From positions 479,557 to 543,556 of the forward strand of contig MFAS01000001.1 of NCBI GenBank assembly GCA_001774685.1: a stretch of DNA of 64,000 bases. The letters are read 5' to 3'. Under the pieces are notes generated by a model. The model was not told the DNA's origin. It saw nothing but the letters and a program-made list of their open reading frames with translations, and did no database searches. Shown here piece by piece: positions 1 to 46,140 of the stretch; within the stretch, counting starts at the first letter, position 1, and each line of letters begins with the position of its first letter. This DNA is from Candidatus Collierbacteria bacterium RIFOXYD2_FULL_45_13. GTDB taxonomy: Bacteria > Patescibacteriota > Microgenomatia > UBA1400 > MFAQ01. A program made the translations under genes and the position numbers.

Positions 1-3000
1 TATCCAGTACACCTCTCACTTGTACCTTCAACAACGCCCGCGATACAGGGACAATAGTTGTTTACAAAGACGTCCAGGGGCCTGCCGGGGAGGACGTTAC
101 GGATAATTCAAATTATTTTGAAGTGAGTTTGGATTCCGGCACGGGACAAACTATTTCGGACAACCTCACGGTTACTTACAATGACATACCTGTTGGAAGT
201 CACACTATTACGGAATCATTAATCGATTCAGACTACACTCTTTACGGAATAAGCAATACTGCCGGAGGATCCGGAAATACTGGCGGACTAACACTTAATG
301 TTACCACCGGAACAAACAATGTCTATGTAACCAACAGACAGAAAACCGGAAAAATAATAGTCATTAAAGATGTTGTAAATCCTAACGGTGGTGAAGTTTC
401 AGATTCTCATCCCTTTACAGCCAATCTCAGCCCGGGAGGTCAATCCTCATCAATTGCTGAAGGAAGTAACGCAGAGTTTACCGTCAATCCGGGAACATAT
501 ACTGTTTCGGAATCCGAGGATGGAGATTACACAAACTTTGGGTGTCTAACTGCCACAGGAAAAACCGACATTGTTGTCGCTTCAGGCGGGGAAGTCTCCA
601 TCACATGCAAAAATCAACAGAAACCAGCCACCATCACAGTCTATAAAAATGTTTTGAAGGCCGATGGTGTCACTGAAGTGTCCGATTCAAACGTATTCTC
701 CGTCACCTTAAGTGGTGAAACTAAAGATTTTTCGGAAGGTAACCCTGCCGTCTTCACTGTTAACCCCGGAGGTCCTTATGCTGCGGTCGAATCTCCTGAA
801 ACAAATTATCTTTGGGTTAGCCAGGACGGTTCCGTGACTGTATTTTCAAACGGCAGTGGAACTATTAATATCGTCAACAAGCAAAAAGCCGGTATCATTT
901 CCGGATATAAGTTTGACGCAACCAGCGGTTTGGGAATTTTAAATTGGGTAATCAACTTAACCGGTGCCTCAACCTTGACGACCTACACAGACGCTTCCGG
1001 TTTCTATGAATTCTTAGGTCTTAATGTTGGATCTTATACCGTTTCTGAAGATCAACCATCTGACTGGACACCAGTCGGAGTCACTTCTTACGATCTCACC
1101 GTCACTCCGGGAGATGAGCTTCTACAGAACAACTTTACCAACTTCCAAAACGGTTCTATTTCCGGTTACAAATATCATGATCTCAACCGCAACGGTACCA
1201 AAGACACAGACGAACCGGAACTTGACGGTTGGAGTATAAATCTGACTGGATCAGCATCAAATTCGGTAGTCACCGGCGCAGGCGACTGGCCTGATGGATA
1301 TTACGAATTTACCAATCTTGGACCGGGTACCTACCATGTTTCCGAGGAAAATCAAAACGGTTGGGTCCAGGAGGAACCTTCGGATAACGATCACGAAATC
1401 GTGATGACTTCAGGGGGAAATTTTACCGGCACAAACTTCGGCAATTTCCACCTTGAGCCGGAGCTATCCATCAACAAAGTCTTAGCCACTACCAGCCCCT
1501 CAGAAATTTTGGTTGGCGAGACCGCCACTTTTGAAATTACGATTACTAACGAAGGCAATGTCACTCTCCAAAATCCAATTATCTACGACACCTACGATGC
1601 AAGTTTCTTGGAATTTGTTTCCAGTTCCCCGGTCGCTCCGACCACTCACACCGGCGCAGTAGCCGACACCTCCGACTACGATGAAGATGGCGACACTACC
1701 GAGCTTATCCGCGACTTAACTTGGGAACTTCCTGTTTCCTTGGCTCCCGGAGAGTCGTACACGCTCACCGTGGTTTTCACCGCTATCCAGGCGACCGCCG
1801 AGCCTACGCTGACCGGGAACGAAGTCTATATGACCGCCTGCTACGAACAATGTGGCGATGGGCAGAGCCTTGAGACTCCTACTGATAACGCCTTTGTAGA
1901 TATTGATTCACTGGGTGGAGTATCCGGCCAAAAATGGATTGACACCGACGGGGACAGCGAATGGGACGAGAATGAGTCCACTCTCAATGGCGTTACCATA
2001 AATCTTCTCAATTCCGATGACGAAGTTACAAACACTACCACCACAGAAGATAACGGCAGCTACAGCTTCACCGATCTAGCTACCGGAACCTATACGGTTT
2101 GTGAGGAAGTTCCCACCGGACACACCCAAACTTACCCCAATGGCTGTCACAGTATCACTGTTACGGATGATGGTGACACTTTCGAGGGTAAAAACTTCGG
2201 CAACGCACCTTTAACAAATATCCACGGCTACAAATGGAGCGACGTAGACGGCAACGGTATTCGTGGGGGCGAGGGCGAAGACCTGCTTGGCGGTTGGACC
2301 ATCTTCCTGGACGAAAACGGCAATGAACGGTTGGACGAAGGTGAGCAATCGGATGTGACCGATTCAGAAGGGCATCACCTGGGTTGGTACGTCTTCAACA
2401 ACCTCATCCCCGGTGTCTATTCCATCTGCGAAATCATACAACCTGGTTGGTCTCAAACCTTCCCGATCAATAGTGAGGTTCAATCCGTCTGTCACTCCAT
2501 TACTTTGCCAAATGACGACCAACAGTCCGAAAACGGTACTGTTGGACCAGAATATCACTTTGGTAACGTCCGAATTGAGCCCGTAATTCAAATAAGTAAA
2601 ACCAACTTCGCCGGTGGAGACAAGACGCCCGGTGGGTCAGTTGGCTACCGAATTCTTATCAACATTTTGGACGCCGATGTAAACAATCTAGTCGTCAAAG
2701 ATCTTCTTCCCAAAGGTTTCGTCTACCGTACCGGCTCTTACCAAGTCGTCATCAACGAACTTGATGTTACCGGCGCCTTCTCAGCCCCTACCTACAGCTC
2801 TCCAGGTACCTGGAATCTGGGTAACGTTCACAAAGGTGACAATATCGAGCTTTTCTACACTGCCGATATTTCCTCAGATGAGTACCCCGGTACATACTTT
2901 GATGTTGCCATGGCACAAGGAAATTCTCTCAGCGGTTCAGAGGTTGTTGCCTTAGCGCAACTCGAAGGTTACATCGCTGACAACTTCGTTGGCACTAGCG

Positions 3001-3176
3001 TCAAAGTCGTCAAAGACCAGACTCGTGCCGAAGTCTACGATGTCGAGAAAAAAGTTGAAGGTCAAGTCCTCGGTGCCTCCACCAGTCTTCCGGCTACCGG
3101 AGCCAACGAACTATGGCTCCTGGCCTCGCTGATCTCCCTCTACTTTGGTCTTAGATTAATAAGAGCATCCAAATAA
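1..3176 (+). CDS. Giant LPXTG-anchored surface adhesin with DUF11 and Cna-B/SdrD-B-like repeats (5' end outside window)
   Basis: The frame is open from nt 3, and the upstream peptide TIVVYKDVQGPAGEDVTDNSNYFEV repeats the internal KIIVIKDVVNPNGGEVSD and TITVYKNVLKADGVTEVSD modules. There are repeated GYKW/GYKY..D.D.NG..D..E..L.GW SdrD-B-like units and a DUF11-like ISKTNFAGGDKTPGG..Y stretch. The C-terminus has LPATG (3087..3101) followed by a hydrophobic segment and an RLIRASK basic tail, which is a sortase cell-wall sorting signal. Confidence 0.8.
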   Translation, partial: SSTPLTCTFNNARDTGTIVVYKDVQGPAGEDVTDNSNYFEVSLDSGTGQTISDNLTVTYNDIPVGSHTITESLIDSDYTLYGISNTAGGSGNTGGLTLNVTTGTNNVYVTNRQKTGKIIVIKDVVNPNGGEVSDSHPFTANLSPGGQSSSIAEGSNAEFTVNPGTYTVSESEDGDYTNFGCLTATGKTDIVVASGGEVSITCKNQQKPATITVYKNVLKADGVTEVSDSNVFSVTLSGETKDFSEGNPAVFTVNPGGPYAAVESPETNYLWVSQDGSVTVFSNGSGTINIVNKQKAGIISGYKFDATSGLGILNWVINLTGASTLTTYTDASGFYEFLGLNVGSYTVSEDQPSDWTPVGVTSYDLTVTPGDELLQNNFTNFQNGSISGYKYHDLNRNGTKDTDEPELDGWSINLTGSASNSVVTGAGDWPDGYYEFTNLGPGTYHVSEENQNGWVQEEPSDNDHEIVMTSGGNFTGTNFGNFHLEPELSINKVLATTSPSEILVGETATFEITITNEGNVTLQNPIIYDTYDASFLEFVSSSPVAPTTHTGAVADTSDYDEDGDTTELIRDLTWELPVSLAPGESYTLTVVFTAIQATAEPTLTGNEVYMTACYEQCGDGQSLETPTDNAFVDIDSLGGVSGQKWIDTDGDSEWDENESTLNGVTINLLNSDDEVTNTTTTEDNGSYSFTDLATGTYTVCEEVPTGHTQTYPNGCHSITVTDDGDTFEGKNFGNAPLTNIHGYKWSDVDGNGIRGGEGEDLLGGWTIFLDENGNERLDEGEQSDVTDSEGHHLGWYVFNNLIPGVYSICEIIQPGWSQTFPINSEVQSVCHSITLPNDDQQSENGTVGPEYHFGNVRIEPVIQISKTNFAGGDKTPGGSVGYRILINILDADVNNLVVKDLLPKGFVYRTGSYQVVINELDVTGAFSAPTYSSPGTWNLGNVHKGDNIELFYTADISSDEYPGTYFDVAMAQGNSLSGSEVVALAQLEGYIADNFVGTSVKVVKDQTRAEVYDVEKKVEGQVLGASTSLPATGANELWLLASLISLYFGLRLIRASK

Positions 3177-3177
3177 A

Positions 3178-4143
3178 ATGAAACTAAAACTATTTCTTCT
3201 TGCTGCCCTTGCGGTATATATCTTCCCAAATGTTATTTTCGCCGCGAGTTTCTCGCTTACCATCGATCGGCCGAAATCCCCCTCAAGAATTGATAACTTC
3301 AATCTGACCGGCACATCCTTAGATCGGCCGAACGCGACTAGGAACATTACCGTTAAATGTTACAAGAAGGGTCCGTCAGACAGCAACTTCGTTCAATTTG
3401 ATACAGATCAGATTTTGATTCCGGGAGGAAATGTGTATTCATGTTCTGTCAACAATAGTACTTTGAATTCGGATGGAGTCTATTCTTTCAAAACAGTCGC
3501 CTCGGTAAGCGAACCGTCATTTGAACAGTTGACAAGCGACATTGTTAATTATGACTACAACACCTCCGGACCGAGTACTCCGGTCAATTACTCCAAAGAG
3601 CGCCTTAATAGTTGCGATTACAAGATCAAGTTTAAGACCGCCGATGATGGCAAGACCGTCAAAGTCCAGATTTTCCGTTCCGACACTCTCAGCATTCATG
3701 TCGACGCTGGTGCTGTGCTGACTTCCGTCAATATCTCACCGAACACCGAAGGGGAAATTACCAACAGTGTTCCGATTTGTGGCAAGGATTATTACTACGT
3801 TATCAGAGCTGTAGATAGCTCAGACAACGCTTCCGGCACTATCGGCGATAGTTTCACGACTACCACGACCACGAGTACCACCACCGGCTCTGTCGCCGGA
3901 AGTCAAACTGGTGGGACGGGTGCCATAGTTCTCACCGACGCTTCTGCTCAGGTCGCCGAACCGGGTCAAACAACTTCCGATACACCGGAACCAATTATCG
4001 ATAACTCTCAAGCCCCCACACCCTCGATTCTCGGTACTTCTACCGAAGACCGGAAAAAAATCACCAAGTGGTTGTTGGGAGCCGCAGCTATTATCGTCGG
4101 TTATCTGCTAATGAAGGCCCGCCGTAGATCAAAATCGAAGTAG
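3178..4143 (+). CDS. Secreted Ser/Thr-rich surface protein, Fn3-like, with C-terminal membrane anchor
   Basis: The N-terminal signal peptide is MKLKLFLLAALAVYIFPNVIFA. There is a T/S-rich linker (TTTTTSTTTGS), and the C-terminus is a hydrophobic helix plus a KARRRSKSK tail. No LPXTG motif is seen. Confidence 0.6.
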   Translation: MKLKLFLLAALAVYIFPNVIFAASFSLTIDRPKSPSRIDNFNLTGTSLDRPNATRNITVKCYKKGPSDSNFVQFDTDQILIPGGNVYSCSVNNSTLNSDGVYSFKTVASVSEPSFEQLTSDIVNYDYNTSGPSTPVNYSKERLNSCDYKIKFKTADDGKTVKVQIFRSDTLSIHVDAGAVLTSVNISPNTEGEITNSVPICGKDYYYVIRAVDSSDNASGTIGDSFTTTTTTSTTTGSVAGSQTGGTGAIVLTDASAQVAEPGQTTSDTPEPIIDNSQAPTPSILGTSTEDRKKITKWLLGAAAIIVGYLLMKARRRSKSK

Positions 4144-4152
4144 AATAGAATT

Positions 4153-4725
4153 GTGAAATATTTACTCGGCATTGCTCTCATTATCTTTGCCTTTGTTGTC
4201 TTGGGGGGAACTTTCCTCCCTGTTCTTCAGCAAGAGATCAGTTACGATCTGGCCAAGTATCAAAATCCATCCGACATCAAAGACCTCAAACCTCTGGATA
4301 CCGATTTCGGTGTCATCATTCCCAAGATTGGAGCCAACGCTCATGTCATCAAGAACGTCGATCCATACAACTCAGTCATATATCAGTCCGCACTTACCGG
4401 GGGAGTGGCTCACGCCAAAGGATCAGCCTTACCTGGCCAAACGGGTAATATCTTTTTATTTTCTCATTCTTCCGCCGATTTTCTCAACGCTACGAAATAC
4501 AACTCTATTTTCTATCTTCTAAGCAAGATGGAAAAAGATGATCCTATCAAACTATTTTACGAGGATAAAGAGTTCAGTTATCTTGTCCAAACGAAACAGA
4601 TTGTGGCTTCTGACGCCATTCAATTTTTAACCTATGAAGCCAAAGCGGAGACCCTTACTCTGATGACTTGTTGGCCCCCGGGAACATCGCTGAGGCGTCT
4701 CATCGTTCAGGCCACCAGACTGTAG
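4153..4725 (+). CDS. Sortase (transpeptidase), class A/E-like
   Basis: It has an N-terminal TM anchor, a conserved His in NIFLFSHS, the catalytic TLxTC motif (TLTLMTCWP) and a downstream conserved Arg (SLRRL). It sits directly downstream of the LPATG protein. Confidence 0.8.
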   Translation: MKYLLGIALIIFAFVVLGGTFLPVLQQEISYDLAKYQNPSDIKDLKPLDTDFGVIIPKIGANAHVIKNVDPYNSVIYQSALTGGVAHAKGSALPGQTGNIFLFSHSSADFLNATKYNSIFYLLSKMEKDDPIKLFYEDKEFSYLVQTKQIVASDAIQFLTYEAKAETLTLMTCWPPGTSLRRLIVQATRL

Positions 4726-4802
4726 TGTGCCGCACTCCCAGGTCTATTGTTTATCCTAACAATCCATCTTATAATTGCCACATTGAATTTTATCTTACAA
4801 AA

Positions 4803-6476
4803 ATGCTAATTTCAGATTCTGACCTAATCAAGCTGGTTCTCCATAAAAAGTTACTTTCCAAAAAAGACCTGGAGAACATAAAAGGGGGACAGAAGGAGTC
4901 ATCAGATTCCCTGCTCAGTCTTATTATGAACTCAGGTCTGGTCGCTGAGGAAGCCCTCTACTTGGAAATCGCTCGCAATCTTCACCTACCATACACCAAA
5001 CTCTCTCCGTCTAAAATCGAAAAAACCATTCTCGGTCTTCTTCCGGAAAAGGTCGCTAGAAATAAAAAGGCGATCGTTTTTGACCGGGATAAAAAATGTC
5101 TTAAGATAGCCGTTTCGGATTCCTCGAACAAGGAGCTCATTGGCCTCATCTCACAAAAGACCGGTCAGCGGGTTAAGCTATACTTGACCTTACCCTCCGA
5201 GATAAAAAAAATCCTCCCTCTCTATAGACTCCCTTTGCAGAAAGCGATAGATAATATTTTGAAAGACAAGTCCGATCTTGGTTTAGAAGCAGCTCCGGTT
5301 AAAAAAATTGTCGACTTACTCATTCTCTACGCTTATCAGGACGGAGCCTCCGATATTCATGTCGAGCCGGAGGAAAATAGTTTCGTCATCCGCTACCGTA
5401 TCGACGGCATTCTTCACGACGTTCTCACTCTTCCAAAAGACCTGTTGGACAGAGTCGCTACTCGTGTCAAAGTCCTGTCCCGCTTAAGAACCGATGAACA
5501 TCAAAATCCTCAAGACGGTAAGTTCAGGTTTCCCCTGGAAGAGGAGAATCTGGATCTTCGTGTTTCCATTATTCCGGTGGCCGATGGCGAAAAAGTGGTG
5601 ATGAGACTCTTAACTTCCAAGTCCCGCGAATATTCACTGGAAAATATTGGCTTTAACCCCATCGACTTAAAAACCATTCAAAAAGCCCTCAATCGTTCAT
5701 ACGGCATGATTCTTTCCACCGGACCCACAGGGTCGGGCAAGACCACCACCATCTATGCTCTAATCAAAACTCTAAACACCAGAGAAAGGAACATCACCAC
5801 AATCGAAGATCCCGTGGAGTACCGCATCAAAGGAGTGAATCAAATTCAGGTAAATCCAAAAACTAACCTCACCTTTGCCAACGGTTTGGGGTCTATTCTT
5901 CGTCAAGATCCCAATATTATCTTCGTTGGTGAAGTTCGCGATAGTGAGACAGCGGCTATTGCCGTCAATGCCGCCCTTACCGGTCACTTGGTTTTCTCCA
6001 CTCTCCACACCTCAGACGCTGTCGGGGCAGTTCCTCGTTTACTGGACATGGGGATAGAGCCCTTTCTCCTGACCTCCACCGTTAATGTTATCGTTGCCCA
6101 GAGACTTCTAAGGAAAGTGTGTGATGACTGCAAAGAATCCCTTGTTATCTCCCGCAAAGAACTAGCCAAGAATATCCCCCAGGATTCCATCAAGCGTATT
6201 TTTGGTTCTTCACAAAAAATCAAAATATTCCAGGGAAAAGGTTGCCCCACTTGTCACCAAACTGGCTATCTCGGTCGGGTGGGCATCGTTGAGGTTTTAA
6301 CCATGACCAAAAATATCAAAAAAATGATCATCGAAGGTCGAGACTCCGATCAAATATTAGAGGTTGCTGTCAAAGAAGGTATGGTTACCATGTTCGATGA
6401 TGGCCTAAAAAAAGCCGGTATGGGCATAACCACTATTGGGGAAGTGCTTCGAGTTACCAAGATTGAATCTTTATGA
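4803..6476 (+). CDS. pilB: Type IV pilus assembly ATPase PilB/GspE family
   Basis: It has a T2SSE_N-like N-terminus, Walker A GPTGSGKTT, Asp box, His box and a C-terminal tetracysteine (CDDC...CPTC). The internal ATG at 4803 was chosen because the ORF-track start at 4668 overlaps the sortase gene. Confidence 0.85.
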   Translation: MLISDSDLIKLVLHKKLLSKKDLENIKGGQKESSDSLLSLIMNSGLVAEEALYLEIARNLHLPYTKLSPSKIEKTILGLLPEKVARNKKAIVFDRDKKCLKIAVSDSSNKELIGLISQKTGQRVKLYLTLPSEIKKILPLYRLPLQKAIDNILKDKSDLGLEAAPVKKIVDLLILYAYQDGASDIHVEPEENSFVIRYRIDGILHDVLTLPKDLLDRVATRVKVLSRLRTDEHQNPQDGKFRFPLEEENLDLRVSIIPVADGEKVVMRLLTSKSREYSLENIGFNPIDLKTIQKALNRSYGMILSTGPTGSGKTTTIYALIKTLNTRERNITTIEDPVEYRIKGVNQIQVNPKTNLTFANGLGSILRQDPNIIFVGEVRDSETAAIAVNAALTGHLVFSTLHTSDAVGAVPRLLDMGIEPFLLTSTVNVIVAQRLLRKVCDDCKESLVISRKELAKNIPQDSIKRIFGSSQKIKIFQGKGCPTCHQTGYLGRVGIVEVLTMTKNIKKMIIEGRDSDQILEVAVKEGMVTMFDDGLKKAGMGITTIGEVLRVTKIESL

Positions 6477-7528
6477 AAACCTTAGACAAAGTTAGAATTA
6501 GCAACAACGACAAGTTAAACTTTCTTTCCAGCTTAGTCACCATGTTGAATGCCGGATTATCTGTTCTAGAGATAGTGGGATCTTTGGCTGAGGAGTCACA
6601 GGGTAATCTCAAAATATTTCTGGACGAACTTTACGAGGATATCTCTCAGGGACATACCATTTCGTCCACCATGTCCAAATTCCCTCGGATTTTCGACAAA
6701 ATCACCGTTAACGTTATTCGTTCCGCCGAAGAAAGCGGCACTTTGGAATCCACCATTCGGGAAGTCGAGTTAAGCCTAGAAAAATCCATCAAGTTTAACG
6801 ACAAGATCAAATCAGCGATGCTGTATCCCATGGTTGTCACCATCGTGTTCTTTGTAATTGTTATCGGTATTCTTGTTTTCGTCATCCCCAAAGTTACTTC
6901 AGTCTTTATTACTCTCAACATTGATCTGCCCTTACCCACCAAGATTCTCCTTTTTATCTCCAATATTCTAACTCAGCATACCTTGATTCTCTTAGCCTCA
7001 CTTCTCGTACTGGGTGCAGGAACCTTTTTAATCTATTTAAAGAAGCGTACCTGGTTCATCAATCGTCTAATCTCTCTTCCCTTTATCTCCAAGATTGTCG
7101 CCGATATTGATCTGGCCAGATTTTCTCACAACCTATCTCTTTTGCTGGACGCCGGCATCCCCATTATCACCAGTTTGGACTTGACCAGAGAAGTCATTAT
7201 CAGAGAAGATATCAGACTAGCCATAGAAGATACCAAAGAAATGGTTTCGTCAGGGAAAAGAATGTCCGAAGGTTTCAAAAAAGCCAAAAAGTTATTTCCC
7301 AAACTTATGGTTCTCATTGCCGATGCGGGGGAACACTCTGGATCTTTAAGTACGTCCATGGAATATATTTCCAAACATCTCGAATATCAGGTCGAGAAAA
7401 GACTGTTCTCGGCCGCCACCTTGATTGAGCCGGTCATGCTCGTCATTATTGGCTTGGTCGTTGGGGGGATGATGCTATCGATCATTAGCCCGATTTACTC
7501 TTTAATTGGCCAAATTGGACCACACTAA
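6473..7528 (+). CDS. pilC: Type IV pilus inner-membrane platform protein PilC/GspF
   Basis: It has a duplicated T2SSF domain architecture with three TM segments, and its start overlaps the pilB stop by 4 nt. Confidence 0.8.
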   Translation: MKTLDKVRISNNDKLNFLSSLVTMLNAGLSVLEIVGSLAEESQGNLKIFLDELYEDISQGHTISSTMSKFPRIFDKITVNVIRSAEESGTLESTIREVELSLEKSIKFNDKIKSAMLYPMVVTIVFFVIVIGILVFVIPKVTSVFITLNIDLPLPTKILLFISNILTQHTLILLASLLVLGAGTFLIYLKKRTWFINRLISLPFISKIVADIDLARFSHNLSLLLDAGIPIITSLDLTREVIIREDIRLAIEDTKEMVSSGKRMSEGFKKAKKLFPKLMVLIADAGEHSGSLSTSMEYISKHLEYQVEKRLFSAATLIEPVMLVIIGLVVGGMMLSIISPIYSLIGQIGPH

Positions 7529-7530
7529 AG

Positions 7531-8007
7531 ATGAGCCATCCCATCCACCATTCCGGACACACTTTAATCGAACTTCTGGTTGTCATGGGTATGTTCACTA
7601 TCCTTTTTGCCGTCTCTTCATTTAACCTTCTGGGGGCCAGATCGCACACCTCTTTGGGTACCACTGTCGACACCTTGCTTACCGATCTTCGTGGCCAACA
7701 AACCCGCGCCATGAACGGAGATACAGGCGGAAGCGGTTCTCCTTCAGACTACGGAGTCCATTTCTTGACGAATGGCTACACTCTCTTCCAAGCACCATAT
7801 TCTCCCTCCGATCCCTCAAATCTTACGGTGTCACTCGACGATGTCGTTATTACCAACACTTTTCCTTCGGACGAGGTTGTCTTTACCCGAGGCAGTGGCG
7901 AGGTTGCTGGGGGTGGTGCTTCAATCCGTCTCACCGGGACCACTTCTCCGGTAGGCCCCCTGATTATTACTCTCAATCGTTTTGGTGTTATTCAGTCAGT
8001 TAATTAA
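7531..8007 (+). CDS. Pseudopilin (GspH/FimT-like minor pilin)
   Basis: The N-terminal prepilin-type segment is GHTLIELLVVMGMFTIL (class III signal, Glu at +5). Confidence 0.65.
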   Translation: MSHPIHHSGHTLIELLVVMGMFTILFAVSSFNLLGARSHTSLGTTVDTLLTDLRGQQTRAMNGDTGGSGSPSDYGVHFLTNGYTLFQAPYSPSDPSNLTVSLDDVVITNTFPSDEVVFTRGSGEVAGGGASIRLTGTTSPVGPLIITLNRFGVIQSVN

Positions 8008-9876
8008 ATGACGAACACTAATCACAAAGGCCAGTCACTTATCGAACTTCTCGTCACCATGGGCTTGCTGACAATTTTTATGCCGGCTCTGGTCAGTGGT
8101 CTGGGTGCTTCTCGTCTCGGCAAAGCTCAACAATCACAAAGATTGGATGCTTTGGAAATACTCAAGGAAACCGAGGAAGCTACTCGCGCCGTGAGGGACA
8201 ATGACTGGGAGAATGTCAAAACCGACGGCACTTATCATCCGAACATTTCCGGAAACACCTGGATATTAAGCTCTGGAACGGATAATGTAAACGGTTTTAC
8301 CAGATCAATAGCCATTAGCGGTGTCCTGAGGGACTCTAGTACCGGAGTTATCTCTCCCACTGGTACCATTCCGGATCCCTCGGTTAAAAAAGTTGACTTA
8401 AGAATTTCTTGGACTACTCCAAATTATTCACATTTGGACACCACCTTTTATCTATCCAGATTCGTCGACAACACTGCTCTTCCAGGTTCAGGTACAATCC
8501 AACCACTTTCTGGTCACGGCGACTGGTGCAACCCTTTAACCGATAATTACAACCGTTTAAATCTTTACCACTCAAGCCAACCCAGTAGCATTATTGCCGG
8601 AATTAACAAGGTGTATGTCGGTACCACCAAAGACTCTTCGGGTTATGCCTTTGACGATGTCAGTATCGATCACAGCATAACCCCTTTTGCTCTCACTGGA
8701 GAAACAAATTACCAAAGTCCAGGATTACGGGCGAACGATGTTTTTACGGAATCAATCTATGCCTATATCGCTCCTGATAGTAACAATCAAGATGAAGTGA
8801 TCATTCTTGATGTTTCGGGAGCCAATCCCTCTCTTATTTCAGCGGTGAACTTCAACGGCAACAAAGGATCCAAGACACTTTATGTCTCGCACAACTCGAT
8901 AGTTAACAAAGATATTCTGTTCTTTGTTGCTTCCAACAACAATTTGTATTCATATGACATAACTGATCGCAATAATCCGATCGCCAAAGGCGTGCTTTTC
9001 GTTGGGGATACGAGCAGAATATTTGTAGTAGACAATTATGTCTTCTTAGCTCAAATATCCACGGCAAACCAGTTTCAAATCATCGACGCTTCGGATCCCA
9101 CTAATCTAAGAAAACCAGGAGGAAAGGGGTTCCTAAAACTAAACGACCAACCGGGGCAAGATGTGTTTGTAAATATTGATGGCACAAGAGCCTATTTTAT
9201 TACTCGAAAATCAGACTTAAATCCAGAGTTTTTTATTATAAATATTTCCGACAAAACCAATCCAGTCCAAATCGGTACCGGTTATGATACATATCTCCCT
9301 TCTGACCTCACCAAACAAATGGACCCAAAAGGGGTTACGGTAATTAACAAAAGAGCCATTGTCGTGGGTTTTGGTAGTCCACCTTATCAAGTATTTAGGA
9401 TTGAGAGTGATAATTATGATCTGTGCAAAGCAGTTACTACCCTAGGATCCTTTACTGTGGACAATTTATATGATGTTTCGTCTATTCTTAATAATGGTCA
9501 CGCTTATTCATACCTGATTGCGGACAACTCATCGGCAGAACTTCAAATAATTGAAGGGGGGAGCGGGGAACCGGGAGGTAGTGGTATGTATGAGTCGAGT
9601 ACTTTCGATGCCGGGCACGATGTTGCCTGGAACAACTTTACCGCCACGTCTGATCCAAATCTCTCTTACAAGTTCTCTCTCAAACACGGCTCTAGCGGTA
9701 GTTGTACGGGCGTAACCTTTACCGATACCGACTTTAATACTTTTACACCAGGACCTCTACCTCTTACCACTATTGGCTCAGGCTACACCAACCCGGCTCA
9801 ATGTATGCGTTATCGAGTGGTTAACTCTGGGTCGACTGCCGCCAGCTACACTATCACCATCAATTACTCACCATGA
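8008..9876 (+). CDS. Large pilin-like protein: prepilin N-terminus fused to LVIVD-type beta-propeller domain
   Basis: The N-terminus GQSLIELLVTMGLLTIF is a prepilin methylation-type helix. Residues about 195-430 carry reiterated VIILDVSGANP, IFVVDNY, FQIIDASDPTN and FFIINISDKTNP motifs, typical of LVIVD beta-propeller blades. Confidence 0.6.
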   Translation: MTNTNHKGQSLIELLVTMGLLTIFMPALVSGLGASRLGKAQQSQRLDALEILKETEEATRAVRDNDWENVKTDGTYHPNISGNTWILSSGTDNVNGFTRSIAISGVLRDSSTGVISPTGTIPDPSVKKVDLRISWTTPNYSHLDTTFYLSRFVDNTALPGSGTIQPLSGHGDWCNPLTDNYNRLNLYHSSQPSSIIAGINKVYVGTTKDSSGYAFDDVSIDHSITPFALTGETNYQSPGLRANDVFTESIYAYIAPDSNNQDEVIILDVSGANPSLISAVNFNGNKGSKTLYVSHNSIVNKDILFFVASNNNLYSYDITDRNNPIAKGVLFVGDTSRIFVVDNYVFLAQISTANQFQIIDASDPTNLRKPGGKGFLKLNDQPGQDVFVNIDGTRAYFITRKSDLNPEFFIINISDKTNPVQIGTGYDTYLPSDLTKQMDPKGVTVINKRAIVVGFGSPPYQVFRIESDNYDLCKAVTTLGSFTVDNLYDVSSILNNGHAYSYLIADNSSAELQIIEGGSGEPGGSGMYESSTFDAGHDVAWNNFTATSDPNLSYKFSLKHGSSGSCTGVTFTDTDFNTFTPGPLPLTTIGSGYTNPAQCMRYRVVNSGSTAASYTITINYSP

Positions 9877-10352
9877 AGCAAATATCTATCAACCACCCGG
9901 GTTTTACCATTGTCGAGTTGCTAATTTACATGGGGGTTTCGGCGATTATTCTGGTTTCTCTGACACAGGTTTTTGTCATGATAGGCCGCCTAAGATTAGA
10001 ATCACAATCGTACTCTCTGCTTCAACAAGACGGCGTTTATTTACTATCCAGACTTAGCTACGATGTTGCCCGGTCCGGTAGCATTTCCACCCCGATCCTT
10101 GGAGCACAGGGTAACGTTCTTCAAACAGACAAGGTTAGATATTTCTTGGATAGTAACCGTCTCCGGATCACCGACTCTGTTGGCACGGAGTTTCTTACCG
10201 GTGGCGATATCACCATCTCCAACTTAAACTTTCATCACCTGGACGGAGGCACTCATGAAAACGTCAGGGTGTCTTTCACTCTTACTAGCCAAATCAAAGA
10301 ACCATCAGGTTTACAAACAAAAGATTTTAGTACCACCGTCGGGACTAGATAA
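9873..10352 (+). CDS. Pseudopilin (PilV/PilW/GspJ-like minor pilin)
   Basis: It has the PGFTIVELLIYMGVSAIIL prepilin N-terminus and a 4-nt overlap with the upstream gene. Confidence 0.65.
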   Translation: MKQISINHPGFTIVELLIYMGVSAIILVSLTQVFVMIGRLRLESQSYSLLQQDGVYLLSRLSYDVARSGSISTPILGAQGNVLQTDKVRYFLDSNRLRITDSVGTEFLTGGDITISNLNFHHLDGGTHENVRVSFTLTSQIKEPSGLQTKDFSTTVGTR

Positions 10353-10357
10353 AGAAT

Positions 10358-10747
10358 ATGGCCAAGAAACAACCTCAAGGAAACATTTTAATCACCTTAA
10401 TCGTTTTTATGTTGATATCTTCAATCGTTGTTTCTTCTGCTGTGGCGATCATAATTACGAACTCTACCGCAGCTTCAAAAGTCGAGCAGGGGCAGATGGC
10501 TTACGAGGCGGCCGAAAGCGGTCTTGAAGAGGCCATCATTCAGTTACTTCGTAATCCGGATTTTTCAGGCACGGTCAGCCATGTTTCTACCGGACTTTCC
10601 GAATTTTCCTATACCATTGGACCTATTTATCCGAAGACCATCGATTCATACGGCTCGTATCACCAATTCACCAGACATTTAAACACCACCGCCACGTATA
10701 ATCTTCAGGGTAGTTTAATAATTGGTAGGTGGCAGGAAATCTACTAA
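10358..10747 (+). CDS. Minor pilin, PilX-N-like
   Basis: There is a hydrophobic N-terminal helix after a short basic leader, followed by an AYEAAESGLEEAI motif resembling the PilX N-terminal domain. Confidence 0.45.
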   Translation: MAKKQPQGNILITLIVFMLISSIVVSSAVAIIITNSTAASKVEQGQMAYEAAESGLEEAIIQLLRNPDFSGTVSHVSTGLSEFSYTIGPIYPKTIDSYGSYHQFTRHLNTTATYNLQGSLIIGRWQEIY

Positions 10748-10752
10748 TCTAT

Positions 10753-11775
10753 ATGAAAAACACCAATCAAAAATCCTTTCTATATCTGGACTCCGGCCAT
10801 CTTTATTTTGTTTATCCGGGCTTGGAAAAACCAATCAAGTTCAATTATCCCCCCAAAGCAATCTCTGATTTGGAAATCAATGACCGATCTTTGTTGGTTA
10901 ACGGTTTGGATGCCTCACTTTTTTCCCAGAAAGTTACTCCTGGACCCCTAATTATTATTTTGTCCAAAAACATCACTTTTCAAAAAAAGATGGAGATCGG
11001 TACCCAAGAAGAAACAAAACAAGAATTTTTGGAAAGTATCCCTTTTGAGAACGTGAGTATCAAGCACTACAATGCTCACAATGGCGGGCCTCTCCTCGTC
11101 ACCAATAAGGATTTTTTTCAGGAGTTCCAAACTATTTTTTCGGCGCGTGGATTTTCGATTGAGGCGATCATTCCTGAAGCTGTTTTGACCTCCAGTACCA
11201 ATAGTTTTAACCCAAAGCAAATAAATTCATATGCGACGCTACATCTCACAGCATCGCTAGTTCACAGTCTCAGTCTCATCGGTGTCTATAACCGCTATGA
11301 GCCCAGAATCCAAAGGATAGCCCGCAAACAATTTGCTCTCAACAAAAACTTGCGAACCTTGATCATCGTCTTCATCTTTGCTCTCCTGATTCTGGCCGGC
11401 TCCTTCGCCTATTCCCGGATTAAATATTCCCGTCCAATTCCGGAAGTATCCCGTCCTGTCGTGGTCACCCCGGTCAAAATGGTCACGGACGATCCGCTCT
11501 TAGTGAACATCCGGATCTATTATTTTGGTAAAAACGAAAAACAGGCGAGAACACTCCAAAGCAATCTTTGGGCCGCTGGTTTCAAAAATACGGACTTGGT
11601 TGCTTCCTCCTCCGCGATTATTAAATCCAATCTTTTCGTTTCTTCGCAATTATCGACCAATATAACTCAACAAATTCGTCTGGAATTGGATAAGGTGGAT
11701 CGCAATTATAGCTTGATGCAAACGTCCAATTCAGTGTCGGAATCGAGCATCTTCTTATCCTCACCTGCCAAGTGA
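10753..11775 (+). CDS. Pilus assembly protein, PilM-like N-domain fused to PilN-like TM/periplasmic domain
   Basis: It is about 340 aa, with a cytoplasmic N-half (FLYLDSGHLYFV as a possible actin-like phosphate-1 motif), a single central TM (LIIVFIFALLILAGSFAY) and a C-terminal periplasmic domain. Its position in the T4P operon supports the call. Confidence 0.4.
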   Translation: MKNTNQKSFLYLDSGHLYFVYPGLEKPIKFNYPPKAISDLEINDRSLLVNGLDASLFSQKVTPGPLIIILSKNITFQKKMEIGTQEETKQEFLESIPFENVSIKHYNAHNGGPLLVTNKDFFQEFQTIFSARGFSIEAIIPEAVLTSSTNSFNPKQINSYATLHLTASLVHSLSLIGVYNRYEPRIQRIARKQFALNKNLRTLIIVFIFALLILAGSFAYSRIKYSRPIPEVSRPVVVTPVKMVTDDPLLVNIRIYYFGKNEKQARTLQSNLWAAGFKNTDLVASSSAIIKSNLFVSSQLSTNITQQIRLELDKVDRNYSLMQTSNSVSESSIFLSSPAK

Positions 11776-11804
11776 TTGACAAGCCTGTATAAAAGTGCTT
11801 AAAT
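11776..11804 (+). promoter_or_regulatory. Sigma70-like promoter for major pilin gene (TTGACA -17 nt- TTAAAT)
   Basis: TTGACA at 11776..11781 sits immediately after the upstream stop, followed by a 17-nt spacer and TTAAAT at 11799..11804, then a 31-nt leader to the ATG at 11836. Confidence 0.45.
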
Positions 11805-11835
11805 ATGCGCAATTAATAAAAATTAGTACAAGTCT

Positions 11836-12306
11836 ATGGCTAAAACCAAACAAAATCAAAAAGGTTTTACTCTTATCGAGCTCTTAGTCGTCATGGGAAT
11901 CCTCGCCGTCCTGTTAGCCGCCGTTCTTATCGCCATCAACCCTGATCGTCAGTTCAAGCAGGCTAGAGACAGTCAACGCCGCAGTGATGTCTTGACCATC
12001 CTCAACGCCGTCCAGCAAAACATTGCAGACAACAAGGGTACCTTCTCAGGTGCCGCATTGGGAGCAGTCAAAACTATTGCCAAATCAACTCCACCCGCTG
12101 CAGGTGAGATTGATATTTGTGGCGCGATCTCTCCCGTCTACACCTCAATGCTGCCTTCAGATCCAAACTCCAGCAATCCTAATGGTGTTGTCGACTGTAC
12201 TGCCGACTACAATACCGAATACACCATTTCCCAAACCGGTGGCCGCATTACCGTTGCCGCCTCCGCTGAGACAGCAGGAGTCGATCCCATCTCGGTCACT
12301 CGATAA
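11836..12306 (+). CDS. pilA: Type IV major pilin (PilA-like)
   Basis: The leader is MAKTKQNQKG followed by FTLIELLVVMGILAVLLAAVLIA. The protein is 156 aa, with two Cys (CGAIS...DCTAD) forming a likely D-region disulfide. It has its own promoter and terminator. Confidence 0.85.
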   Translation: MAKTKQNQKGFTLIELLVVMGILAVLLAAVLIAINPDRQFKQARDSQRRSDVLTILNAVQQNIADNKGTFSGAALGAVKTIAKSTPPAAGEIDICGAISPVYTSMLPSDPNSSNPNGVVDCTADYNTEYTISQTGGRITVAASAETAGVDPISVTR

Positions 12307-12330
12307 AGTTATCAAAGCTTAACTTTTAAA

Positions 12331-12360
12331 AATACTCCGCCGAAAGGCGGAGTATTTTGT
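12331..12360 (+). terminator. Rho-independent terminator after pilin gene
   Basis: The stem AATACTCCGCC / GGCGGAGTATT flanks a GAAA loop and is followed by TTTTG. Confidence 0.65.
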
Positions 12361-12386
12361 GGATAATCTTGGCTATAATTTGCAGT

Positions 12387-12689
12387 ATGATCAGTCTCAA
12401 AAAACTCCAAAAACAAATCTACGCCAATAAAATTAAAAAGGGTTTCAATACCACCGATATTTACAAAGAGTTTTGTTTGATTCACGAAGAGGTTACCGAA
12501 GCCTGCCGTGCCCACTATCGAAAAGAATATTCCGTCGGCGAAGAGCTGGCCGATGTTGCTATATACCTTCTTGGCTTGTCGGAGATTCTCAATATCAATC
12601 TGGAGAAAGAGATCAAAAGAAAGGTTCTGAAAAATCATAAACGCGTATACAAACGAATTGGTGGCGTTTTAACCAAAACACGGGCATAA
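12387..12689 (+). CDS. MazG-like nucleotide pyrophosphohydrolase
   Basis: It has the EEVTEA...EELADVAIYLLGLSEILNINLEKEI helix pair typical of the MazG/NTP-PPase fold. The ATG at 12387 was chosen because the ORF-track TTG start overlaps the terminator. Confidence 0.55.
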   Translation: MISLKKLQKQIYANKIKKGFNTTDIYKEFCLIHEEVTEACRAHYRKEYSVGEELADVAIYLLGLSEILNINLEKEIKRKVLKNHKRVYKRIGGVLTKTRA

Positions 12690-12730
12690 CTATATTCAAA
12701 GAAATCATCCTGTGACATAATGGTTTTGTT

Positions 12731-13621
12731 ATGGCACATCCTGCCCTCACCCTGTTCTTTCCTCATCCACACAACAATCACAAGGCTAAGGTCCTCTGGC
12801 CAAAGTCCATTGTCATCTTGATCGGGCTCTTTATCATGGGCCGCTCCATTGTGGACATTACCATCGGACTTCTTCCTGGCGTTCTCGGTTATGCTTCTCA
12901 AATCGACCCCGCCAAAGTAATTGAGCTAACAAACAACGAGCGTCTCAACGCCGGGCTAACTATCGTCAAACAAAATCAGGAACTAAATCAAGCCGCTCTG
13001 GCCAAGGCTTCCGATATGTTTGCTCACAACTACTGGGCCCACGTATCTCCCGCCGGTACCGAGCCTTGGTCCTTTGTCATTTCTTCCGGTTACAAATATC
13101 AGCATGCGGGAGAAAACCTTGCTCGGGACTTTGGCAATCCTTCCGATATTGTCAAAGCTTGGATGGCCTCTCCAACCCATCGCCAAAACCTACTGGACAA
13201 TCGTTACAAAGATATTGGGGTTGCCGTCATGGATGGTTATCTCAACGGGGTCGAGACTACTATCGTTGTCCAAATGTTTGGCACACCCCAAACTTCGGTC
13301 TCCAATATTGCTTCGGATCGTGTCGAGGTCAAGCCGGCTCTAGCGGTCGAAAAGGCGGTCCTACCTGCCCAAAACACGGAAGTGGTTCCCCTGCCGTCTC
13401 CTACCAAGCTGATTCCTTCTTCCGGTTTATCTCCTTTGGATCTAAAGCGGTCATGGTCCTTGGCCTTTGCCATCATTGTTCTCTTTGCCCTTAGTTTGGA
13501 CTGGATCTTTGTCCTTAGGTACAATATCATCCGTATCTCAGGAGATACCTGGGCCCACCTAACCTACTTCTTAGGTATGGCTGCCATTTTGATTATCATT
13601 AGACAAGGCATCATACTATGA
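12731..13621 (+). CDS. CAP/SCP/PR-1 domain protein, membrane-anchored
   Basis: The CAP-domain motifs HNYWAHVSP...GENLA...W..SPTHRQNLL...IGVAV are present. It has an N-terminal TM and a C-terminal double TM. Confidence 0.7.
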   Translation: MAHPALTLFFPHPHNNHKAKVLWPKSIVILIGLFIMGRSIVDITIGLLPGVLGYASQIDPAKVIELTNNERLNAGLTIVKQNQELNQAALAKASDMFAHNYWAHVSPAGTEPWSFVISSGYKYQHAGENLARDFGNPSDIVKAWMASPTHRQNLLDNRYKDIGVAVMDGYLNGVETTIVVQMFGTPQTSVSNIASDRVEVKPALAVEKAVLPAQNTEVVPLPSPTKLIPSSGLSPLDLKRSWSLAFAIIVLFALSLDWIFVLRYNIIRISGDTWAHLTYFLGMAAILIIIRQGIIL

Positions 13622-37987: not shown

Positions 37988-38794
37988 ATGAAACTATCTG
38001 TCATTATCCTTACGTACAATGTCGAAGATGAGATTATTCCTGCCATCAAGTCATCTCAGTTTGCCGACGAAATTATCGCCGTGGATACCGGCTCTACGGA
38101 CGGGACCTTGGATATTTGCCGCAAGAATGGCGTAAAGATCGTCCATACCACTACCGATAGTTTTGCCAAATGGCGCAATGATGGTGCCAAAGCAGCCAAA
38201 GGGGACTGGCTTCTTTACCTGGACTCCGACGAAAGAATTCCGGTTAAGTTAGCTGATGAGATCTTGTCCACCATTCAAAATCCGTCCCATGATGCCTATA
38301 CCATTAGCCGTTACGAGGTTTTTTTGGGAAAACATCTCAGCCATTGGGGGGATCCCCGCGTCCTCCGGTTTATGAAACGGTCTGCCCTCAAACGCTGGGA
38401 AGGTAAGCTTCACGAACAGCCCAAAATTGACGGTACCGTTGGAGACCTGAGACAGCAAATGGTTCATCTCTCCCACAAAAACATTGACGAAAAACTACCC
38501 AATACTCTTCTCTGGTCAAAAACCGAGGCTTCCATGCTTTTTAATGCTGGTCATCCACCAATGGTTGGCTGGAGGTTTATCAGGATAATGTTTACCGAAT
38601 TTTGGGACCGTTGTATCAAACAGGGACTCTGGAAGGATGGTACCGAAGGCTGGATAGAAATCATTTATCAGATGTTTAGTAAGTTCGTGACCTACGAGCG
38701 TTTGTGGGAGATGCAGAGACAGCCATCTCTCAAAGAGACTTACAGAGATGTTGATAAGCAAATCTTGACTGAATGGGAAAAACAAAAAAAGTAA
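37988..38794 (+). CDS. GT2 glycosyltransferase (KdtX-like subfamily)
   Basis: It has LSVIILTYNVEDEI...DEIIAVDTGSTDGT. The ATG at 37988 was chosen because the ORF-track start at 37937 overlaps the upstream gene. Confidence 0.75.
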   Translation: MKLSVIILTYNVEDEIIPAIKSSQFADEIIAVDTGSTDGTLDICRKNGVKIVHTTTDSFAKWRNDGAKAAKGDWLLYLDSDERIPVKLADEILSTIQNPSHDAYTISRYEVFLGKHLSHWGDPRVLRFMKRSALKRWEGKLHEQPKIDGTVGDLRQQMVHLSHKNIDEKLPNTLLWSKTEASMLFNAGHPPMVGWRFIRIMFTEFWDRCIKQGLWKDGTEGWIEIIYQMFSKFVTYERLWEMQRQPSLKETYRDVDKQILTEWEKQKK

Positions 38795-46133: not shown

Positions 46134-46140
46134 TTAAAAT

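What the first reader, a model, noticed from the sequence alone, without database searches (positions are those of the whole stretch)
8008..9876. Pilin N-terminus fused to an LVIVD beta-propeller: candidate pilus-tip adhesin
A class III prepilin helix (GQSLIELLVTMGLL) is followed by about 590 aa. Residues about 195-430 (nt about 8590..9300) carry at least four copies of an hydrophobic-IIDxSxP blade motif typical of LVIVD repeats. A pseudopilin carrying a beta-propeller would be presented at the pilus tip and could mediate host or surface binding.
Basis: partly seen in the sequence, partly recalled or inferred. Interest (0 to 1): 0.65.

Follow-up and report, generated by a model that had tools for sequence, protein, structure and literature searches.

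The report
Propeller-carrying minor pilin of Microgenomates
This gene encodes a type IV pilus subunit whose pilin stalk carries a seven-bladed LVIVD beta-propeller and a small beta-sandwich; it is a conserved core part of the pilus operon of ultrasmall Microgenomates (CPR) bacteria and probably sits at the pilus tip, but pilins with grafted binding modules are an already known kind.

Summary
ORF 8008-9876 (622 aa) has a class III signal peptide (NHKG|QSLIE, Glu at +5) and a long N-terminal helix with a pilin beta-sheet (aa 9-165). A seven-bladed propeller (aa 181-517) matches Pfam LVIVD above its cut-off, and a 105-aa beta-sandwich ends the protein. The AlphaFold2 model has mean pLDDT 87.

The sequence is identical to a "hypothetical protein" of Candidatus Collierbacteria. 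The gene is second of four minor pilin genes in the operon PilB-PilC-(GspH-like)-THIS-(GspJ-like)-(GspK-like, no Glu5)-orf348-major pilin. That order is kept in 83 related loci, and 180 species-representative genomes encode a relative.

Stand-alone relatives of the pilin module score best against PilV, so this is a PilV/GspI/ComGE-type minor pilin with cargo. Other lineages put different cargo on the same carrier in the same slot. The C-terminal domain has no Pfam or PDB match and recurs in giant lectin-rich surface proteins.

Tip display follows from anatomy and synteny. Adhesion rests only on analogy with PilY1, Saccharibacteria PilX2 and Streptococcus sanguinis PilB. All modules evolve at the same moderate rate, which argues against a fast-diversifying host-specificity factor. 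The N_methyl+LVIVD architecture was catalogued in 2021 (30 proteins, function unknown). Verdict: a new, uncharacterised member of a known kind.

The parts
8008..9876 (+). Whole gene: 622-aa modular minor pilin (pilin module + LVIVD propeller + C-terminal beta-sandwich). Identical to hypothetical protein A3K29_02690 of Candidatus Collierbacteria RIFOXYB2_FULL_46_14.
8008..8031 (+). Leader peptide MTNTNHKG of the class III (prepilin) signal, ending in the Gly that precedes the predicted prepilin-peptidase cut.
   Evidence: G|Q..[IV]E conserved; leader length varies from 2 to about 30 aa in the family
8032..8202 (+). Alpha-1 helix of the mature pilin (aa 9-65): Gln+1, Glu+5 and a hydrophobic N-terminal half.
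   Evidence: AlphaFold2 helix 7-65; weak profile matches to the N-terminal helices of solved pilins (Thermus PilA 6xxd, geopilin)
8203..8502 (+). [quoted passage not shown]
   Evidence: strands 74-164; stand-alone homologues score best against TIGR02523 PilV; the target's own best NCBIfam hit is ComGE
8548..9558 (+). Seven-bladed LVIVD beta-propeller (aa 181-517). Strand 181-184 probably closes blade 7. Cys174 and Cys473 are both conserved in the family.
9562..9873 (+). C-terminal ~105-aa beta-sandwich (aa 519-622) with conserved Cys566/Cys599 and the C-terminal signature NYSP. No Pfam, PDB or viral-structure match. The same domain is repeated in giant lectin-rich surface proteins.
4668..6476 (+). 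PilB/GspE-type assembly ATPase, first gene of the conserved operon. The true start codon is uncertain.
6473..7528 (+). PilC/GspF platform protein.
7531..8007 (+). Minor pilin 1, GspH/FimU/ComGD-like (HHSG|HTLIE).
   Evidence: the orthologue in L084 has a weak Pfam GspH hit
9873..10352 (+). Minor pilin 3, GspJ/PilW-like by position (NHPG|FTIVE).
10358..10747 (+). Minor pilin 4, GspK/PilX/ComGG-like: PilX_N match and no Glu at +5 (QPQG|NILIT).
10729..11775 (+). 348-aa bitopic membrane protein of unknown family, conserved in the operon (68 of 83 loci). Possibly a PilM/N/O- or GspL-like assembly component; this is inference only.
   Evidence: no family or PDB match
11836..12306 (+). Probable major pilin (NQKG|FTLIELLVVMG). 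It has the strongest N_methyl match and is the most conserved pilin of the operon.

Best explanation
The gene encodes a modular minor pilin of the type IV pilus of a Microgenomates (CPR) bacterium.

Shown by computation:
- a prepilin signal, an alpha-1 helix and a pilin beta-sheet (aa 1-165);
- a seven-bladed LVIVD propeller (aa 181-517);
- a C-terminal beta-sandwich (aa 519-622);
- a fixed place as the second of four minor pilin genes in an operon kept across the class.

Inferred:
- A prepilin peptidase cuts after Gly8.
- The protein joins the GspH-, GspJ- and GspK-like minor pilins on the PilC platform to prime polymerisation of the major pilin by PilB. It therefore ends up at the pilus tip, where it occupies the PilV/GspI/ComGE position.
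- There it displays roughly 50 kDa of propeller plus sandwich. This would be a covalent counterpart of the non-pilin propeller protein PilY1 that caps proteobacterial pili.
- The displayed module binds a conserved ligand on a partner cell or surface, most plausibly a glycan or envelope component.
For: Pilin features.

LVIVD propeller.

Operon PilB-PilC-mp1-THIS-mp3-mp4-orf348-major pilin, in the same order and strand in 83 loci (present in 71, 76, 80, 83, 80, 74, 68 and 75 of them). 180 species-representative genomes encode a relative.

PilV-type carrier:
- Stand-alone homologues of the pilin module (E 1e-22 to 1e-10) score best against TIGR02523 PilV.
- The target's own best hit is ComGE.
- The neighbours are GspH-like upstream and, two genes downstream, a Glu5-less PilX_N protein.

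Carrier and cargo logic:
- P0269 has the same pilin module in the same slot with non-LVIVD cargo.
- P0092 has two propellers in tandem.

Extracellular binding context: the C-terminal domain recurs in giant proteins with Laminin_G_3, H_lectin, FG-GAP, DUF2341 and Kelch domains.

Precedents:
- TM7x PilX2, a propeller-bearing minor pilin whose deletion halves host binding (PMC11623550).
- Modular pilins and PilY1 (PMC8179133).
- Type IV pili without a secretin are widespread in CPR bacteria (PMC6744442).
Against: - There are no experimental data for any family member.
- No ligand is known for any LVIVD domain.
- No prepilin peptidase, PilT or PilM was found among the window ORFs scanned.
- N_methyl scores just below Pfam's cut-off in this protein.
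- Gln at +1 is, to my knowledge, uncommon for pilins.
- The PilV assignment is transitive and below NCBIfam's trusted cut-off.
- The propeller evolves at the same rate as the stalk (p-distance 0.54 against 0.53).
- The protein shows no specific co-variation with the major or other minor pilins (partial r 0.02-0.11).
- The orientation of the modules in the model is uncertain (pTM 0.67).
Confidence: 0.6

Rival explanations
1. The operon builds a competence-type (Com-like) pilus whose job is DNA capture. The propeller and sandwich cargo would then be the DNA receptor or only an assembly primer, not an adhesin for cells or surfaces.
For: - The target's best NCBIfam hit is the competence minor pilin ComGE. 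The gene order resembles comGA-GB-...-GD-GE-GF-GG, and neighbours hit ComGD and ComGA/ComGB.
- CPR bacteria lack nucleotide synthesis and are thought to scavenge DNA through pili (PMC6744442).
- Even conservation of all modules fits a universal ligand such as DNA.
Against: - The ATPase and platform score better as PilB/GspE and PilC/GspF than as ComGA/ComGB.
- The ComGE match covers only the N-terminal helix and is far below the cut-off.
- Nothing in the propeller or sandwich resembles a known DNA-binding pilin module.
- The C-terminal domain keeps company with lectin-type domains.
- In TM7x, mutants of the propeller-pilin system kept normal competence.
Confidence: 0.15
2. The pilin-like N-terminus serves only as a membrane anchor and export signal. 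The protein would stay on the cell surface as a receptor or binding protein, as in archaeal bindosome proteins with class III signals, and would not enter a filament.
For: - The cargo is very large for a filament subunit.
- Gln+1 is atypical, and N_methyl is below the cut-off.
- There is no co-variation with the other pilins.
Against: - The position inside the minor-pilin block is strictly conserved, with translational coupling to both neighbours.
- Glu5 is conserved.
- The pilin beta-sheet module is complete and homologous to stand-alone PilV-like pilins.
- Large modular pilins are known to be incorporated into pili (PMC8179133).
Confidence: 0.12
3. The propeller is an enzyme, for example a lactonase-like or glycan- or peptidoglycan-modifying activity, delivered on the pilus to act on the partner's envelope.
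For: - Fold matches include lactonase-type seven-bladed propellers (3hfq, 4qrj).
- Raynaud et al. list pilins with peptidase modules.
Against: - These matches are generic propeller similarity at 7-13% identity, no better than WD40 scaffolds.
- There is no profile match to any enzyme family.
- To my knowledge LVIVD has no known catalytic members.
- The invariant residues listed are mostly Trp, Gly, Pro, Tyr and Cys, which are typical structural positions.
Confidence: 0.06

Closest known systems
PilX2 of Nanosynbacter lyticus TM7x (Saccharibacteria)
   Same: A CPR minor pilin with a C-terminal seven-bladed beta-propeller, encoded next to the major pilin and other minor pilins. It is proposed as the tip adhesin, and its deletion halves host binding (PMC11623550).
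   Different: - PilX2's propeller is built of RCC1 repeats, not LVIVD.
- PilX2 is reported to lack a recognisable PilD signal, whereas this family keeps G|Q...E.
- Here the carrier is PilV-type, and a third beta-sandwich module follows.
- No sequence relationship was seen in any search here.
PilY1/PilC of Pseudomonas, Neisseria and Myxococcus type IVa pili
   Same: A beta-propeller protein encoded with fimU-pilV-pilW-pilX. It joins the minor-pilin priming complex and is displayed at the tip for adhesion (as summarised in PMC8179133, and PMC11623550).
   Different: - PilY1 is not a pilin; it docks non-covalently.
- Its propeller belongs to another family (IPR008707). No Pfam hit other than LVIVD and N_methyl was reported for the target or dominated its relatives.
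- Here the propeller is covalently fused to the PilV-like subunit.
Modular pilins PilB (vWA) and PilC (lectin) of Streptococcus sanguinis; the modular-pilin catalogue of Raynaud et al. 2021
   Same: A small pilin module with a grafted functional module in a monoderm-type pilus. The catalogue already lists N_methyl (IPR012902) + LVIVD (IPR013211) architectures for 30 proteins.
   Different: The LVIVD class was listed only as a motif of unknown function. Its propeller fold, its operon slot, its C-terminal module and its spread across Microgenomates were not described there.
LVIVD repeat proteins (Pfam PF08309)
   Same: Matches the profile above the cut-off. The repeats of about 45 aa each form a four-stranded blade, as predicted for the family, and the context is extracellular.
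   Different: Typical members are cell-surface proteins of archaea and bacteria with ordinary signal peptides. Here the repeats are carried on a pilin. Only 3 of the 7 blades of the window protein are recognisable to the profile.
PilV / GspI / ComGE core minor pilins
   Same: The slot in the H-I-J-K gene order. Stand-alone homologues of the pilin module score best against TIGR02523 PilV, and the target itself scores best against ComGE.
   Different: All scores are below the curated cut-offs. Known PilV, GspI and ComGE proteins are small (about 80-190 aa) and carry no cargo.
CofB/TcpB of type IVb pili
   Same: An initiator minor pilin with extra C-terminal beta domains displayed at the tip (as summarised in PMC8179133).
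   Different: The pilus class and the added domains differ (beta-repeat plus beta-sandwich, no propeller). No sequence or fold match was found here.

Membership tests
Type IV pilin / pseudopilin | Class III signal peptide: short polar leader ending in Gly, then about 20 hydrophobic residues with Glu at +5 | tested here: met
   MTNTNHKG|QSLIELLVTMGLLTIFMPAL. The motif is present in 80 of 83 orthologues. Pfam N_methyl scores 19.9 bits against a cut-off of 21.2 in this protein and matches 22 of 58 relatives at E<=0.01.
Type IV pilin / pseudopilin | Long N-terminal alpha-helix packed on an antiparallel beta-sheet | tested here: met
   The AlphaFold2 model has a helix at 7-65 and strands at 74-164, with pLDDT mostly 80-96. 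This is a prediction, not an experimental structure.
Type IV pilin / pseudopilin | Encoded with the assembly ATPase, the platform protein and other pilins | tested here: met
   PilB, PilC, three other minor pilins and a major pilin lie in one co-directional block, conserved in 83 loci.
Type IV pilin / pseudopilin | Processing by a prepilin peptidase and incorporation into a filament | not testable with these tools
   No Peptidase_A24 gene was found among the window ORFs scanned. The rest of the genome was not available.
LVIVD repeat family (PF08309) | Profile match at or above the Pfam gathering score | tested here: met
   23.5 bits for the whole protein and 27.8 bits for aa 170-521, against a cut-off of 20.2. 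48 of 58 relatives match, the best at E 4.8e-30.
LVIVD repeat family (PF08309) | Tandem repeats of about 42 aa, each a four-stranded blade of a beta-propeller | tested here: met
   Seven blades of four strands. The Foldseek top hits are beta-propellers, mostly seven-bladed. The motif [ILV][ILV][DN]x[ST]xxxxP occurs at aa 265, 316, 358 and 410.
PilV / GspI / ComGE-type core minor pilin | Profile match to TIGR02523, TIGR01707 or NF041013 above the curated cut-off | tested here: not met
   The target scores 17.6-20.3 bits against ComGE (cut-off 49). Its stand-alone homologues score 24-39 bits against PilV (cut-off 52.2). It is similar to the family but is not a certified member.
PilV / GspI / ComGE-type core minor pilin | Gene position between the GspH/FimU-like and the GspJ/PilW-like minor pilin genes | tested here: met
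   The order is mp1 (GspH hits), target, mp3, then mp4 (PilX_N, no Glu5), in the window and in 74-80 of 83 loci.
PilY1/PilC tip adhesin family | PilY1-type C-terminal propeller domain (IPR008707 / Pfam Neisseria_PilC) | tested here: not met
   Pfam scans at E<=0.1 (target) and E<=0.01 (58 relatives) returned LVIVD, N_methyl, Beta_propel and two single-member families, and no PilY1 family. No PilY1 structure is among the 50 best PDB fold matches.
Modular pilins (Raynaud et al. 2021) | An N-terminal pilin module (IPR012902) followed by a domain not specific to pilus biology | tested here: met
   Pilin module plus LVIVD propeller plus beta-sandwich. The IPR012902-IPR013211 architectures are listed in that paper's Dataset S1, and IPR013211 is LVIVD.
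Pilus tip adhesin (functional class) | Located at the filament tip and binds a ligand | not testable with these tools
   Only inference from synteny, size and analogy is available.

The most novel reading that the evidence does not exclude
Two linked readings are not excluded.

1. In Microgenomates the propeller is an obligatory, covalently built-in cap of the pilus rather than an optional adhesin. It would be a PilV-PilY1 equivalent in a single polypeptide, needed both to prime assembly and to recognise a conserved partner ligand. A propeller-capped type IV pilus would then have arisen independently at least three times (PilY1, the Saccharibacteria RCC1 pilin, the Microgenomates LVIVD pilin).

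2. The conserved C-terminal domain, together with the short 'ETT..F..GT' segment that precedes the cargo in most relatives, is an undescribed split beta-sandwich 'display cassette'. CPR and other bacteria would use it to mount propellers and lectins on pilins and on giant surface proteins.
Probability: 0.3. Interest if true: 0.6.

Novelty: new member of a known kind. Interest (0 to 1): 0.4.

Why it matters
CPR bacteria are thought to live attached to other microbes. Type IV pili are their best candidate for finding and holding a host, yet outside Saccharibacteria no pilus component has been tied to that task.

This family gives Microgenomates a concrete, conserved and easily recognised candidate for the pilus tip:
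- It defines which minor pilin carries the cargo.
- It shows that the same carrier slot holds other cargo in other lineages.
- It points to an unannotated ~105-aa domain shared with giant lectin-rich surface proteins.

The soluble propeller and sandwich module could be expressed for ligand screens or used as a probe for host cells in enrichment cultures.

Tried and rejected
1. C-terminal domain identity led nowhere specific. The profile search against PDB sequences found only chance antibody hits (E>=0.085). Foldseek against PDB (best E 0.042) and against viral structures (best E 0.024) gave only weak jelly-roll-like similarities. There is no Pfam or NCBIfam match.

3. The pilin-module profile against PDB sequences matched only the N-terminal helix of major pilins, so it gave no minor-pilin class.

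4. The LVIVD pilin gave partial r 0.09 with the major pilin and 0.02-0.11 with the other minor pilins, while the three small minor pilins co-vary with each other (0.26-0.33). This is no signal; the method is weak at these distances, so the result is inconclusive rather than negative.

5. orf348 (10729-11775) has no Pfam, NCBIfam or PDB sequence match. A PilM/N/O-like role remains a guess.

6. The promoter and terminator scan of 4000-13000 found counts close to those in shuffled sequence and is not informative.

7. The first profile scan of genomes with the 58-sequence alignment failed for lack of conserved stretches. It succeeded with 11 sequences.

8. The upstream sortase and its LPATG substrate are not part of the system: neither the sortase nor the downstream CAP protein was found beside the operon in any of the 83 related loci.

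9. Membership in the PilY1 family was rejected.
Full report
**1. What is there**

ORF 8008-9876 (+) encodes 622 aa. Its ATG follows the stop codon of the preceding pilin gene directly, and its stop overlaps the start of the next gene (ATGA). The three genes are therefore tightly coupled. The window has about 45% G+C and no tRNA or Rfam match. The protein is identical to "hypothetical protein A3K29_02690" of Candidatus Collierbacteria bacterium RIFOXYB2_FULL_46_14, a member of the Microgenomates group of the Candidate Phyla Radiation.

**2. Check of the observation**

- *Pilin N-terminus.* The N-terminus reads MTNTNHKG|QSLIELLVTMGLLTIFMPAL: a polar leader ending in Gly, Glu at +5, and a hydrophobic stretch. 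Pfam N_methyl scores 19.9 bits, just below the 21.2 cut-off. Across orthologues from 83 loci the motif G|xxx[IVL]E is present in 80, with Gln at +1 in 67 (N-termini listed).
- *Blade motif.* It occurs at aa 265, 316, 358 and 410.
- *LVIVD profile.* Pfam LVIVD scores 23.5 bits for the protein and 27.8 bits (three stretches) for the propeller region, against a cut-off of 20.2. Blade 4 alone reaches 22.1 bits. Of 58 aligned relatives, 48 match LVIVD, the best at E 4.8e-30.
- *Structure prediction.* AlphaFold2 on the 58-sequence alignment (mean pLDDT 87.2, pTM 0.67) predicts four parts: a helix at 7-65, a pilin beta-sheet at 74-164, seven four-stranded blades between 181 and 517, and a beta-sandwich at 526-621.
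- *Fold matches.* The best PDB fold matches are beta-propellers, mostly seven-bladed: FBXW11 at E 2.8e-9, lactonase-like 3hfq and 4qrj, and Leptospira Lp49.

Two corrections apply: the propeller has seven blades over aa 181-517, and there is a third module.

**3. Surroundings**

The gene lies in a co-directional block:

| Coordinates | Gene | Main evidence |
|---|---|---|
| 4668-6476 | PilB/GspE ATPase | Pfam and NCBIfam matches |
| 6473-7528 | PilC/GspF platform | Pfam and NCBIfam matches |
| 7531-8007 | Minor pilin 1 | GspH and ComGD hits |
| 8008-9876 | The target | See above |
| 9873-10352 | Minor pilin 3 | Class III signal; GspJ-like by position |
| 10358-10747 | Minor pilin 4 | PilX_N hit; QPQG\|NILIT, no Glu5 (a lack known, to my knowledge, for GspK/PilX/ComGG) |
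| 10729-11775 | Bitopic membrane protein, 348 aa | No family match |
| 11836-12306 | Probable major pilin | Best N_methyl match |

The same order and strand are found next to three distant homologues. They are also found in the 80 best of 180 species-representative genomes that encode a relative. Presence counts in the 83 loci are PilB 71, PilC 76, mp1 80, target 83, mp3 80, mp4 74, orf348 68 and major pilin 75; several loci are limited by contig ends. Record titles are Roizman-, Woese-, Levy-, Gottesman-, Ames- and Microgenomates bacteria, plus some MAGs labelled Gammaproteobacteria that look mislabelled.

Neither the upstream sortase nor the downstream CAP protein was found beside the operon in any of these loci. 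No prepilin peptidase, PilT or PilM was found among the window ORFs scanned.

**4. Which pilin it is**

- The pilin-module profile finds stand-alone pilins of 150-220 aa in other CPR lineages, at E 1e-22 to 1e-10 and about 95% coverage. NCBI names one of them a PilV family protein.
- Their best NCBIfam match is TIGR02523 PilV (E 1e-9 to 3e-5, below the cut-off). The target itself best matches ComGE.
- Together with the H-[this]-J-K gene order, this places the carrier in the PilV/GspI/ComGE class. It is a resemblance, not certified membership.

**5. Carrier and cargo**

- Relatives keep the pilin module and the C-terminal domain but vary the middle. P0092 (957 aa) has two propellers in tandem, and P0087 and P0096 have long inserts.
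- P0269 (1215 aa) has the same pilin module (hhalign probability 99.4%). It sits in the same slot after PilC and a GspH-like pilin, but it carries non-LVIVD cargo.
- Mature lengths in 79 orthologues are 594-676 aa, with one of 935 aa. 62 of them end in NYSP.

**6. The third module**

- Modelled alone, the C-terminal domain has pLDDT 92.
- It has no significant match in PDB sequences, PDB folds or viral folds. The similarity is only to generic jelly-roll-like folds.
- An exhaustive HMMER search of 1.84 billion representatives finds 3123 proteins at E<=1e-3 and 750 at E<=1e-10. These include giant proteins of 1300-4373 aa with 3-8 copies.
- Those giants carry Laminin_G_3, H_lectin, FG-GAP, DUF2341, Kelch and GH115_C domains, while the repeated domain itself has no Pfam model.
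- Their sequences show a recurring pattern: a short 'TT..DF..GT' segment, then cargo, then this domain. Most LVIVD pilins have the same segment before the propeller (consensus). A split sandwich that hosts cargo is an idea only; it was not tested.

**7. Evolutionary rate**

- Median identity to the window protein is 34%, over 99% of its length. For comparison: 35-37% for the other minor pilins, 49% for the major pilin and 54% for PilB.
- In 39 complete operons its mean p-distance (0.54) is the lowest of the four minor pilins.
- Helix, pilin sheet, propeller and C-terminal domain evolve alike (0.53, 0.54, 0.54 and 0.58).
- Mirror-tree partial correlations with the major pilin (0.09) and with the other minor pilins (0.02-0.11) show no specific co-variation. 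The method is weak.

**8. Mechanism**

- *Shown:* the anatomy, the operon and the family distribution.
- *Inferred from established type IV filament biology:* cleavage after Gly8; assembly with the three other minor pilins into a priming complex on PilC; extension by the major pilin driven by PilB; hence display of the propeller and sandwich at the tip.
- *Inferred by analogy only:* binding of a partner-cell or surface ligand. The analogues are PilY1, Streptococcus sanguinis PilB/PilC and TM7x PilX2, whose deletion halves host binding.

The even, moderate conservation suggests a conserved ligand or a structural role rather than a rapidly changing specificity determinant. The rivals are a competence pilus with a DNA receptor, a cell-anchored receptor that does not enter the filament, and an enzymatic propeller. 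None is excluded, and each has less support.

**9. Comparison and novelty**

- Pilins with grafted modules are an established kind. Raynaud et al. 2021 list IPR012902-IPR013211 architectures for 30 proteins and call the motif of unknown function. IPR013211 is the LVIVD repeat.
- A propeller-bearing minor pilin has been studied genetically in Saccharibacteria.
- Type IV pili without a secretin are known to be widespread in CPR bacteria.
- A full-text search for LVIVD together with pilin returned one unrelated preprint. I found no description of this family's fold, operon slot, third module or distribution.

The verdict is a new, uncharacterised member of a known kind, of moderate interest.

Noticed in passing
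window 9562-9873 (aa 519-622 of the target); proteins P0139, P0145, P0160, P0183, P0216, P0268: The ~105-aa C-terminal beta-sandwich has no Pfam, PDB or viral-fold match. It is nevertheless found in 3123 representative proteins (750 at E<=1e-10), including giant 1300-4373-aa proteins with 3-8 copies interleaved with lectin, FG-GAP, DUF2341 and Kelch modules. A 'TT..DF..GT' segment recurs before each cargo. It looks like an undescribed, widespread extracellular domain, possibly a split cargo-hosting sandwich.
   Followed up: partly
window 123-4725: A 1017-aa surface protein (SdrD_B, SpaA, DUF11 domains) ends in LPATG, a TM segment and a basic tail. It is followed by a Thr-rich 321-aa membrane-anchored protein and a sortase, directly upstream of PilB. 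The sortase was not found beside the pilus operon in any of the 83 related loci.
   Followed up: partly
window 10729-11775: A 348-aa bitopic membrane protein with no family or PDB match is conserved inside the pilus operon (68 of 83 loci), but only about 44% of its length aligns. It may be a fused PilM/N/O- or GspL-like assembly component. The counterpart in L003 has a weak LytR_C hit.
   Followed up: partly
window 13907-62214: A very long co-directional envelope-glycan region. It holds RmlA-D rhamnose genes; about nine GT2, one GT1 and one GT87 genes; at least five PMT_2/GT-C paralogues (24457, 27245, 28779, 52908, 56079); YfhO; and a Wzx-like flippase. Several 500-1020-aa ORFs have no Pfam hit (31979-35041, 38773-40407, 41493-43157, 50385-52067, 54578-56281). 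A link to pilin or surface-protein glycosylation is speculation.
   Followed up: no
window 45483-46644: A DUF4256 protein (E 7e-86) and a small TIR_2-domain protein sit inside the glycosyltransferase region. They may be a defence or signalling element.
   Followed up: no
window 12731-13621: A CAP/SCP-domain protein with C-terminal transmembrane segments lies just after the major pilin gene. It is not conserved at that position in related loci.
   Followed up: partly
loci L012-L016, L022, L024, L026 and others: Many public MAG records that carry this Microgenomates-type operon are titled 'uncultured Gammaproteobacteria' or 'Pseudomonadales'. One isolate name contains 'PATE'. The record titles look like taxonomic mislabels.
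   Followed up: no
L003 8001-10874 (P0092); L084 1297-4944 (P0269): Variants of the same minor-pilin slot. One has two LVIVD propellers in tandem (957 aa). The other (1215 aa) has a GH115_C-like module and several copies of the C-terminal domain in place of LVIVD.
   Followed up: partly
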